This document shows positions 8,400-45,900 of a DNA stretch of 64,000 bases, one piece after another (position 1 is the first letter of the stretch; the number at the start of each line of letters is the position of its first letter). This stretch comes from Octopus vulgaris (lineage: Eukaryota). The stretch is taken from NCBI GenBank assembly GCA_951406725.2, contig OX597817.1, forward strand, positions 78,182,001 to 78,246,000, read 5' to 3'. The translations under genes were made by a program, and so were the position numbers. The notes beneath the pieces are model-generated. The model was not told the origin of the DNA. It searched no databases and was given only the letters and a program-made list of their open reading frames with translations.

Positions 8400-8437
<38 letters not shown>

Positions 8438-8438
<1 letters not shown>

Positions 8439-9221
8439 CAATTGAGGATAAAATCTTTAAAAGAAATTATCAGTAGTCAGCGTGAAAACCTCGTAAGAGA
8501 AAAAATCCGTAAATTCTTCCTCTTTGAAAATATTCATTTATATTATATTGAGGGTACTACTATTCGTATACCAACACGCTAAGAGGGACCAATGCAGTCA
8601 AAACTACTAAAAATAAAAAATTTACCGAATGCAAAACTTCAAAACACATCATTTTAAAAAAGAATTCAGTTACATATCACATGTGATTTCGCATTTAATG
8701 CAGAATATGCATTTCATGTTCGTCAGTGCAACAAACTCAAGAAATATAAGAAAAAACATAACATTACAAACTCGATAGCCAACCGTAGAATTCGTCGTAG
8801 CATGTACGAATGTTTATCCTTACATATCTATGAAAATGGCGGGCTTTTTTGCAATGCATTTCGGTAACAAATTGCCTAGTCAGAATAAAAATTCAGTATT
8901 GAACTATTCCGGTGAAAAATATAAATTAACAATTGAGGATAAAATCTTTAAAAGAAATTATCAGTAGTCAGCGTGAAAAACCTCGTAAGAGAAAAAATCC
9001 GTAAATTCTTCCTTTTTGAAAATATTCATTTATATTATATTGAGGGTACTACTATTCGTAGATACCAACACGCTAAGAGGGACCAATGCGGTTTTTTAAA
9101 ATGATGTGTTTTGAAGTTTTGCATTCGGTAAAATTTTGTTTATTTTTAGTAGTTTTGACCGCATTGGTCCCTCTTAGCGTGTTGGTATCTATGAATAGTA
9201 GTACCCTCAATATAAAATAAA
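8438..9221 (-). mobile_element. Non-autonomous Penelope-like/retrozyme-like cassette: 491-bp period partial tandem plus inverted copy, flanked by (TA)n
   Basis: Direct repeat 8438-8598 / 8929-9092; 9092-9221 is the reverse complement of about 8538-8661; contains the hammerhead at 8669-8732. Confidence 0.75.
8669..8732 (-). ncRNA. Type I hammerhead ribozyme motif, intact core
   Basis: Minus strand: guugca CUGACGA acaugaaaugca-uauuc-ugcauuaaaugc GAAA ucacauguga UA uguaac. Stem I is 6 bp, helix III is palindromic, and the base of stem II has an A:C mismatch. Confidence 0.8.
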
Positions 9222-10851: not shown

Positions 10852-10869
10852 ACATTTTACCAATGGCCC

Positions 10870-10930
10870 GATAACTGAAGAGATGGCGGTGTGGATTTCC
10901 ACCTCGGCATCTGAAACTCAGAGTTTTATT
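10870..10930 (+). ncRNA. Type I hammerhead ribozyme motif
   Basis: gauaa CUGAAGA gaug...gugga..uccaccucggcauc u GAAA cucagag UU uuauu. Long stem II, quasi-palindromic helix III, one extra U before GAAA. Confidence 0.7.
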
Positions 10931-11261
10931 ATGGCTACCGAATAATTGTCACATATTACTTTTGCAGATGAAAGGTGTTTGTTTTCTAATTTTTTATATA
11001 TATATTATATTGTGTGAAATTCGATTTAATATTTCTAAATTGACTTTTTTTCCTTGTAAGTTTGGATTTTATTCCCTCAAATAATAATTATATATATTTA
11101 TATATATATACATGCATATATATATATATATGTATGTATACACATATACATATATATATATATATATATACATATATATATACACATATACATACACACA
11201 CACACATATATATATATATACACATATACATATATACACATATACATATATACATATATAC

Positions 11262-21770: not shown

Positions 21771-22297
21771 ATTTACTCTTTAGTACTTCAAGCTATTTTT
21801 ATGTAATTTTGGTAAATATATTTTGGTAAAATAAATTTTGGTAAATATATTTCTTAATTTCGTGCATACACATTGTTTAATTTTGATTACATTGCTACAT
21901 AAGTGTGAACAATTCTATGTACTATGCTGGATACATTTGGTGTTCATCTGGTATGTTGATTTTTTGTTCATTTTTTTTTGTGTCTTGATTATGCTTGCCT
22001 GGATGATTAAAAAGTGCATTTTGTGCACTAATTATGAAATCATATAATCTGCAGCTGAATCTGGTTTTAAAAGGCTCGCTTTGAGAGTTGCATTCCCTCG
22101 CATTCAGTACAATGTGTTTATAATGGTAGTTTTGACTTTAAGAATCCCTCCTAGCATGAGGCATTTATGTATAGTAATGCCCTTAGTATAAATAAATATA
22201 TTTAAAAGGAATAATTAATAAAATTTCCCTTATGAGGTTTTTAACACTAACTACTTGATAAATTCTTATAAAGATTTTATCCTATTTTTCAATTATA

Positions 22298-22363
<66 letters not shown>

Positions 22364-43432: not shown

Positions 43433-43496
43433 TAGAGTCTGATGAGCCGCCTATAAGGCTAAGCACTTTATAGAGGGGAAACCATTGGTCACTCTA
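43433..43496 (+). ncRNA. Type I hammerhead ribozyme motif, intact core, GUC cleavage triplet
   Basis: uagagu CUGAUGA gccgccuauaagg-cuaagca-cuuuauagaggg GAAA cc-auu-gg UC acucua. Stem I is a perfect 6 bp; predicted cut after 43490; G:G mismatch at the base of stem II. Confidence 0.8.
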
Positions 43497-44910: not shown

Positions 44911-45588
44911 ATATACATATATATAAATAGGTTTAAGAGACAGAATCACCTTCAAGCAGCTCAAATGACATTGAATAACATTATCTATGATAGAGATATA
45001 TAAGATTAAATTTTATCAAAATTAATATCTACAGTTACTATTCTATTAAATGGAATATATAGACAAATGTTAATAAGAATTATCTCCCCCTACACCGGAG
45101 CTTCGTTGGAAGCCATGATTGATTCGCGAAGAGGGAAATTTCAAAAAGATAAGTTAATATTTCTATTTCGTTTTCTTATTTAAAAAATTTTTATTATTAT
45201 TATTTTTTATTCCTCATTTTTGTTCTTTATTTAAGGATGAAAAATTATTTTGACGATTTCTAGTTGTATAGTTTTGATTGTCATGTCTTTATATATGATG
45301 TTAATAGCAAAATAGTTGTATATAATCTAGACCTGAAGATTGGCAGTATAGTCGGATTGATATGGTATTGAATTTCAAGACCATCTATTTCAGCAATACC
45401 GATAAATATATTGTTATGAAATGTGCGTTGTCTATATAATTTAATATATGATTCAGAAAAGTAATTGTAGATATTAATTTTGATAAATGTTAATCTTACA
45501 TATCTCTATCATAGATAATGTTGTTCAATGTTCTTTGAGTTGCTTGAAGGTGGTTCTGTTTCCTAAACCTATTTATATGTATGTATAT
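44911..45588 (+). mobile_element. Penelope-like cassette with about 155-bp inverted repeats and a hammerhead
   Basis: 44911-45066 is the diverged reverse complement of 45428-45588. Confidence 0.8.
45328..45434 (+). ncRNA. Type I hammerhead ribozyme motif with long stem II
   Basis: uagac CUGAAGA u-uggcaguaua..ucggauug...caauaccga..uauauuguua-u GAAA ugugcg UU gucua. Helix III looks like a CpG-decayed cgcgcg palindrome. Confidence 0.7.
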
Positions 45589-45900
45589 AATACAGCGAGA
45601 AATTCATTTTAGAACCACTAAATTGAATTTCTCTCCCCTGTGGACTCGGAAAGAACTTCTCTAATATTAATAATTATATATATATATAATTATTAATATG
45701 TATGTATGTATATGTATATATAATTAGATGTGTACGCATATATCTATCTATCTATATACAAATTAGTGTACATTTAAACACAACAAACACGACCCTTAAC
45801 AGGCAGCCTTACATGCTAGAAGGCGCAGTCAAAACAACCAAAACCACATTTAAGAGCAATTTCGAAGGGAATGAAATATAAAAACTTTTACCTTGCTTTT

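What the first reader, a model, noticed from the sequence alone, without database searches (positions are those of the whole stretch)
44911..45588. Inverted repeat whose inner breakpoint coincides with the predicted ribozyme cleavage site
The hammerhead at 45328-45434 would cut after 45429. The inverted arm 44911-45066 matches 45428-45588 and stops matching at ...tatatagacaa, within 2 nt of that cut. With the similar case at 8438-9221, this suggests the inverted copy is cDNA of a self-cleaved RNA run to its 5' end. That would be a genomic footprint of in vivo ribozyme activity (inference from two cases).
Basis: partly seen in the sequence, partly recalled or inferred. Interest (0 to 1): 0.8.

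Follow-up and report, generated by a model that had tools for sequence, protein, structure and literature searches.

The report
Ribozyme cut marks in retrotransposon fossils
Old copies of Penelope-type jumping genes in this animal genome often begin exactly where their built-in hammerhead RNA enzyme is predicted to cut, which likely means the enzyme cut the RNA in living cells before it was copied into DNA.

Summary
The inverted repeat is real (87% over 161 nt). It is the ordinary inverted 5'-truncated arm of an endonuclease-bearing Penelope-like element (PLE) carrying a type I hammerhead. Its inner end fits the predicted scissile bond exactly once a 2-nt microhomology is allowed. Genome-wide, 5' ends of inserted segments, inverted or direct, pile up at the predicted cut in this family (10 of 118 at risk within -3..0; 1.3-1.6 expected) and in a third family (12 of 43; 0.45 expected from the upstream rate; the element's own -1 base is absent in 11 of 12). 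The second family shows no peak (0 of 60). The order of the three follows core quality: GUC with G-C closing pair, then GUA/GUU with U-U, then AUA with A-C. Best reading: some retrotransposition templates were ribozyme-cleaved sense RNAs copied to their 5' end. Against: palindrome and (TA)n hot spots lie just downstream, the samples are partial, and no RNA or cleavage data were available. Ten papers consulted and six searches showed no such footprint for PLE hammerheads; R2's HDV ribozyme is the precedent.

The parts
44911..45066 (-). Inverted, 5'-truncated pLTR arm without the 3' tail; its 5' end lies at the predicted first base after the scissile bond (45064), plus 2 nt of microhomology
45065..45066 (.). 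2-nt microhomology (AA/TT) shared by the inverted arm and the direct copy
45065..45676 (+). Direct copy of the 3' UTR/pLTR of an EN+ Penelope-like element (family 1), 5'-truncated 365 nt upstream of the cut and spanning the whole hammerhead
   Evidence: longer copies carry RT and GIY-YIG remnants upstream
45329..45433 (+). Type I hammerhead motif: stem I 45329-32/45430-33, CUGAAGA 45333-39, long stem II 45341-50/45407-16 with U-U at the closing position, GAAA 45418-21, 2-bp stem III with palindromic loop (ACGCGCGU in most copies), predicted cut after 45429
45590..45676 (+). About 90-nt 3' tail, present on the direct copy and absent from the arm; exactly one arm carries it in 34 of 38 head-to-head pairs
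8431..9092 (-). Family 2 (about 497-nt tandem unit, copies 97% alike): full unit with hammerhead (CUGACGA 8726-8720, AUA triplet, predicted cut 8675/8674) plus upstream partial tandem 8919-9092
9092..9221 (+). Family 2 inverted arm, starting 13 nt downstream of the predicted cut (not at it)
10967..11095 (+). 3' tail shared with family 3' (5228 search candidates), whose GUC hammerhead shows the strongest pile-up of 5' ends at the cut

Best explanation
The repeat is a head-to-head Penelope-like element insertion, and its inverted arm is likely cDNA of a sense RNA already cut by the element's predicted hammerhead, copied to the new 5' end and joined to the direct copy through a 2-nt microhomology. 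Shown: the element's identity, the junction interval, and the pile-up of 5' ends at the predicted scissile bond in two families. Inferred: a tandem-pLTR transcript self-cleaves (likely as a dimer, through the palindromic stem III loop) in a fraction of molecules. The element's GIY-YIG nuclease nicks both strands of an AT-microsatellite target, and each nick primes RT at one of two start sites about 90 nt apart, giving one tailed and one tail-less arm. A cDNA on a cleaved template cannot pass position 0, so ends collect there or a few bases short after microhomology trimming. Here the direct copy spans the ribozyme, so it came from an uncleaved template; cleavage is thus partial and not required for insertion.
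For: Family 1: 10 of 118 segments at risk end in -3..0 (2.2%/nt) against 0.18-0.5%/nt in the flanking windows; binomial P 7e-7 to 1e-4 depending on the background used. Cut-anchored lists: 7 of 161 family hits end at -3..0 and 0 of 154 at -13..-4. Partner-resolved intervals all contain 0: L001 [-2,0], L034 [-2,+1], L141 [-1,0], L160 [-1,+1]; L039, L053 and L162 lack the element's -1 base. Family 3': 12 of 43 at -3..0, 1 at -13..-4, background 0.26%/nt, P 2e-14; C17 is present in 1 of 12 against 25 of 31 spanning copies (Fisher 2e-5). The end rate there is 5.5%/nt just downstream and falls to 0.6%/nt upstream, a cliff at the cut. Flanks and partners differ between events and span several subfamilies, so the events are independent. 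The rank GUC > GUA/GUU > AUA fits GUC being the best triplet (PMC2238771, passages).
Against: Family 2 shows no peak: 0 of 60 at risk; 0 of the 98 one-mismatch hits listed ended at the cut; 4 of 10 filtered hits were compatible, about 2% against 1.3% expected (P 0.2). In family 3' the largest cluster is at +10..+17 in a TATTATATA palindrome. If the 5.5%/nt downstream rate is spread over a 4-nt window, 10 of 41 is not significant (P 0.32; P 6e-5 for a 1-nt window). The cut-anchored pattern needs G at 0, which CpG decay removes from spanning copies, inflating the at-cut share. Only 3 of the 7 cut-anchored family 1 hits were new. L130 has one unexplained base at -1, and L149, L153, L045 and L071 end 5-10 nt upstream. 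The chosen helices pair in 94% of cells but show no two-sided covariation. In the anole PLE, cleavage was dispensable in vitro and no RNA-seq reads ended at the cut (PMC11167929).
Confidence: 0.72

Rival explanations
1. Ends collect near the hammerhead because short palindromes and AT runs around it (ACGCGCGT, TATATA, TTTTTTAAAA) favour fold-back and microhomology joining, or because RT stalls at the ribozyme's helices; no cleavage is involved.
For: Fold-backs centred on such palindromes exist (L119, L040, L071, L209/L210). Family 2 peaks at +13..+19 and +81..+88 and family 3' at +10..+17, none at a cut. Palindromes at inverted junctions were described before (PMC3846280, passages).
Against: Microhomologies at the position-0 junctions examined are only 0-3 nt, and many are with host DNA. 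A stall at the foot of stem III should keep C17, which is absent in 11 of 12; a stall at stem I should fall near +5..+10. The three families share no DNA motif at the site beyond NUH.
Confidence: 0.14
2. Position 0 is a transcription start inside the pLTR, or a cut by a protein nuclease, that happens to coincide with the ribozyme site.
For: PLE transcripts start inside the pLTR (PMC6765202 and PMC8557442, passages). Genomic DNA cannot tell a capped 5' end from a 5'-OH end, and no raw RNA reads were available.
Against: It needs the coincidence, to about 1 nt, in two families with unrelated sequence around the site.
Confidence: 0.08
3. The peak is an alignment or sampling artefact: CpG decay in stem III stops alignments early, and anchored patterns select copies.
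For: Stem III is CpG-rich and decayed in many copies. Automatic calls erred for some segments (L001 at +24, L053 at +8, L039- at -3). Samples are partial (43 of 361; 94 of 749).
Against: Partner or host sequence can be read right up to position 0. Decayed copies still align across the site. The -13..-4 window is nearly empty rather than merely shifted.
Confidence: 0.06

Closest known systems
EN+ Penelope-like elements of the Neptune/Nematis type (PMC8557442, passages)
   Same: RT followed by a Cys-rich linker and C-terminal GIY-YIG; pLTR with hammerhead; partial tandems; inverted 5'-truncated copy; optional 3' tail on one arm; (TA)n targets
   Different: Tail about 90 nt instead of 30-40 nt; long AT-rich 3' UTR; 5' ends enriched at the hammerhead cut, which the passages read do not report
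PAc (Poseidon, Anolis carolinensis) in vitro system (PMC11167929, main text parts 1-2 of 4)
   Same: Both target strands cut and extended; two RT start sites that define the tail; hammerhead in the pLTR
   Different: There cleavage was dispensable and no RNA-seq reads ended at the cut; here genomic ends mark the cut in a minority of segments
R2 retrotransposon HDV-like ribozyme (PMC3774820, abstract)
   Same: [quoted passage not shown]
   Different: In R2 the cut defines the full-length 5' end at a fixed rDNA site; here it is a hammerhead near the 3' end of the element, and the cleaved product gives short pLTR-only segments
Metazoan non-LTR retrozymes (PMC7229834 passages; bioRxiv 10.64898/2026.07.22.740005 part 1 and passages)
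   Same: Type I hammerhead in short tandem units; family 2 (497-nt tandem unit) looks like one
   Different: Family 1 is the pLTR of a coding PLE; no circular RNA was tested here

Membership tests
EN+ Penelope-like element | RT followed by C-terminal GIY-YIG endonuclease in one ORF upstream of the pLTR | tested here: met
   Neighbouring loci L012+L005 read RT motifs (..GLYRDD..), then CNCR..C, VYK and YIGST remnants in several broken frames. Pfam GIY-YIG E 6e-4 and 3e-3, below the cut-off. The RT piece had no Pfam hit but matched a 759-aa protein with PF26215 at 48%. All copies seen are broken.
EN+ Penelope-like element | pLTRs in partial tandem or inverted arrangement with optional tail | tested here: met
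   38 head-to-head pairs, 34 with exactly one tailed arm; tandems in family 2
Neptune/Nematis clade | CX2-5CxxC zinc-finger-like linker before GIY-YIG | tested here: inconclusive
   Cys-rich linker seen (CNCRHKINC..KCNL), but no reference set to place it
Neptune/Nematis clade | RT phylogeny grouping with the clade | not tested
   No reference PLE proteins held
Type I hammerhead ribozyme | Core CUGANGA / GAAA / NUH with three helices, open at stem I | tested here: met
   Sequence; 93.7% of cells paired against 22-51% for slid controls, one-sided changes only; U-U at the stem II closing position
Type I hammerhead ribozyme | Match to an Rfam hammerhead model | tested here: not met
   0 matches at gathering score in the window; no E-value search was run
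Type I hammerhead ribozyme | Self-cleavage after H17 | not testable with these tools
   Only indirect: genomic 5' ends at N1.1
Non-LTR retrozyme (family 2) | Non-coding tandem units each with a type I hammerhead | tested here: met
   497-nt tandem units with intact motif; no element ORF seen in 30 loci
Non-LTR retrozyme (family 2) | Circular RNA intermediate | not testable with these tools
   No raw RNA reads listed

The most novel reading that the evidence does not exclude
PLE hammerheads cleave in the germ line often enough to shape the repeat landscape. In the GUC family most templates are cleaved, so the cut sets a hard 5' wall and turns pLTRs into short mobile pieces. Each head-to-head insertion is built by a dimeric RT from two separate sense RNAs (cleaved or not) primed at two start sites. 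The height of the position-0 peak is then a fossil, family-by-family readout of ribozyme activity in vivo.
Probability: 0.35. Interest if true: 0.8.

Novelty: new variant of a known kind. Interest (0 to 1): 0.64.

Why it matters
Whether the minimal hammerheads of animal Penelope-like elements cut in vivo, and whether cut RNA is used for retrotransposition, is open. [quoted passage not shown] End-mapping of genomic copies gives a cheap test in any repeat-rich genome. It also points to the sense RNA as template for inverted arms, against the antisense self-priming model offered in PMC3846280.

Tried and rejected
Rfam scan: no hit. Monomer folding energy: not informative. Whole-window inverted-repeat scan: swamped by microsatellites. 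The first 30 family 1 loci were found with a query containing the ribozyme and are biased to spanning copies; the window and the 11 loci found only that way were left out of the test. One search's exclusion letters were set in the wrong order, so it served only as a denominator (386 hits). Six microsatellite chance hits and two were dropped after inspection. The automatic partner-interval script resolved only 4 of 17 junctions cleanly; the others were read by eye. No RNA holder was listed for family 2 and only contigs were offered, so no reads were laid. Phage and PDB searches with the RT piece found nothing. The window's own hammerhead at 10875-10925 had no close relatives among the 40 scored hits, which matched only its tail. 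Earlier-findings look-ups were empty. Rejected: 'the ribozyme causes the inversion' (most arms end elsewhere) and 'one master copy starting at the cut' (flanks, partners and subfamilies differ).

Full report
Observation. The arm 44911-45066 is a reverse copy of 45428-45588 (87% over 161 columns, E 1e-50). The sequence shows a type I hammerhead core: CUGAAGA 45333-39, GAAA 45418-21, GUU 45427-29 (core numbering recalled). The predicted 3' product begins at 45430, called position 0 below. Rfam gave no hit and the monomer fold is unremarkable (z -1.4). On 14 copies the named helices pair in 93.7% of cells against 22-51% when slid, with one-sided changes only and no gain over shuffles. The two bases by which the arm passes the cut are also the first bases of the direct copy, so the junction interval is -2..0. 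The arm's last 9-10 nt lie beyond a diverged patch, and a stricter aligner ended it at +24. The second case fails: its cut would be 8675/8674 and its arm starts at +13.

What the element is. The window lies in a 2.8-Gb genome where this repeat has 503 search candidates. Long copies share more than 1.4 kb upstream and lead into broken GIY-YIG, Cys-linker and RT frames, so it is the 3' end of an EN+ Penelope-like element. Inverted 5'-truncated copies and an optional tail are normal for these elements (PMC8557442, passages; PMC3846280, passages). Here exactly one arm has the roughly 90-nt tail in 34 of 38 head-to-head pairs. That fits two RT start sites and extension of both target strands, as shown in vitro for PAc (PMC11167929, main text parts 1-2 of 4).

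Test 1, family 1. Copies were sampled by a motif 107-149 nt downstream of the cut: 313 matches at up to 3 mismatches, of which the 100 listed and all 69 exact matches of subfamily B were held. Of 182 unique segments, 10 from the window and from loci found only with a ribozyme-containing query were dropped, leaving 172. Of 118 that reach position 0, 10 end in -3..0. That list counts L039 twice and misses L053-, which ends at 0 by eye; corrected, it is 10 loci. End rates per nt at risk are 0.29% (+23..+100), 0.5% (+1..+22), 2.18% (-3..0), 0.18% (-30..-4) and 0.30% (-120..-31); P is 7e-7 to 1e-4. Cut-anchored lists gave 3 of 67 and 4 of 94 (first 100 of 448 listed) at -3..0 and none at -13..-4, after 8 microsatellite chance hits were removed; P 0.002, but only 3 of the 7 are new. 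The four intervals resolved by script all contain 0. L039, L053 and L162 exclude -1, and L001 and L141 exclude +1. L130 has one extra base, and four segments end 5-10 nt upstream.

749 exact matches to a downstream motif; 94 of the 100 listed were held. Of 102 segments, 0 of 60 at risk end in -3..0, and clusters lie at +13..+19 and +81..+88. A genome-wide filter for non-element upstream sequence gave 10 hits, 4 compatible with 0, about 2% of an estimated 178 against 1.3% expected (P 0.2). This is a negative result.

Test 3, family 3'. A search with a third hammerhead region of the window retrieved a large family sharing its tail and carrying its own hammerhead with GUC and a G-C closing pair. 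Of 361 exact matches to the first 21 nt after its cut the first 43 were fetched. 12 end in -3..0, 1 in -13..-4 and 6 in -100..-14 (P 2e-14 against the upstream rate); the count is 10 of 41 without two hits that lack the family body. The -1 base is C in 1 of 12 against 25 of 31 spanning copies (Fisher 2e-5), so these ends stop at the bond itself. In 45 tail-anchored segments 22 end at +1..+22, mostly at a TATTATATA palindrome: 5.5%/nt downstream against 0.6%/nt upstream. Against that local rate the at-cut count has P 6e-5 (1-nt window) to 0.32 (4-nt window). The anchor needs G at 0, which CpG decay removes from spanning copies. PLE membership of this family rests on architecture and one GIY-YIG remnant beside a copy (L360).

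Mechanism. Shown: identity, architecture and end distributions. Inferred: part of the pLTR transcripts self-cleave, probably as dimers through the palindromic stem III loop (dimer model: PMC4209133 and PMC6765202, passages). RT copies the 3' product to its end, and the cDNA joins host DNA or a partner cDNA by 0-3 nt of microhomology; trimming back would explain the downstream shoulder. In the window the arm came from a cleaved template and the direct copy from an uncleaved one; the arm is no closer to its partner than to other copies, which is weak support for two templates. The three families rank as their cores predict (GUC best: PMC2238771, passages; the role of the G10.1-C11.1 pair is recalled), but three families are too few to establish a trend.

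Rivals. Palindrome or AT-run joining and RT stalling are real here and explain the other clusters, but they do not predict loss of the -1 base or a cliff at 0. A start site at the same base in two unrelated families is unlikely but cannot be excluded from DNA. An alignment artefact is unlikely because partner or host sequence is readable up to 0.

Literature. Searches and the texts seen gave no report of PLE insertion ends at the hammerhead cut. Besides those cited above I saw the bioRxiv retrozyme preprint (part 1 of 5 and passages), PMC7229834 (passages) and PMC6431247 (passages). PMC11167929 reports no RNA-seq reads at the cut; its supplementary figure S2 was not readable and could bear on genomic ends. 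Lunse 2017 was not held; Arkhipova 2006 and 2017 were not read. The precedent is R2, whose HDV ribozyme sets 5' junctions (PMC3774820, abstract).

Verdict. Confidence in cleaved-RNA templates is 0.72; interest 0.64.

Noticed in passing
window 10867-10934 +: A third hammerhead motif (CUGAAGA 10875-81, GC-rich stem II, GAAACUCAGAGUU, predicted cut after 10925) on the same 3' tail as family 3'; a relative appears in reverse in L339.
   Followed up: partly
family 1 pairs, e.g. window 44911 and 45590-45676; family 2 arms ending at +137/+144 against +243: The tail is about 90-100 nt, longer than the 30-40 nt in print, and exactly one arm carries it in 34 of 38 family 1 pairs.
   Followed up: yes
L347, L352, L353, L356, L377, L379, L382, L385: T precedes the cut position in 11 of 12 at-cut family 3' junctions, often as ATT; this may be an ATT target preference (as for PAc), untemplated A on the cDNA, or an abortive inverted arm.
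   Followed up: no
L053 1190-1390: An unrelated insert of about 170 nt with an apparent 8-bp duplication (TTTAGACC) sits exactly in the head-to-head junction.
   Followed up: no
L168 1054-1080: 14-nt tandem duplication starting at position 0 next to a fold-back, as if RT reached the cut twice.
   Followed up: no
L172-L175 (C31 and start of C4): Near-identical long family 1B copies with GIY-YIG remnants, three on contig C31 and one 45 kb from the start of C4, all interrupted at the same place by a CATCAT-starting repeat; possibly a segmental duplication.
   Followed up: no
L012 2650-3000: Asparagine-rich stretch between RT and endonuclease, like the N-rich inserts described in rotifer Penelopes (PMC3846280).
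   Followed up: no
window 21959-22363 -: Older (70-76%) relative of family 2 in the same window.
   Followed up: no
window 43439-43481 +: CUGAUGA..GAAA match with a hairpin but no convincing stem I/III; probably chance or decayed.
   Followed up: no
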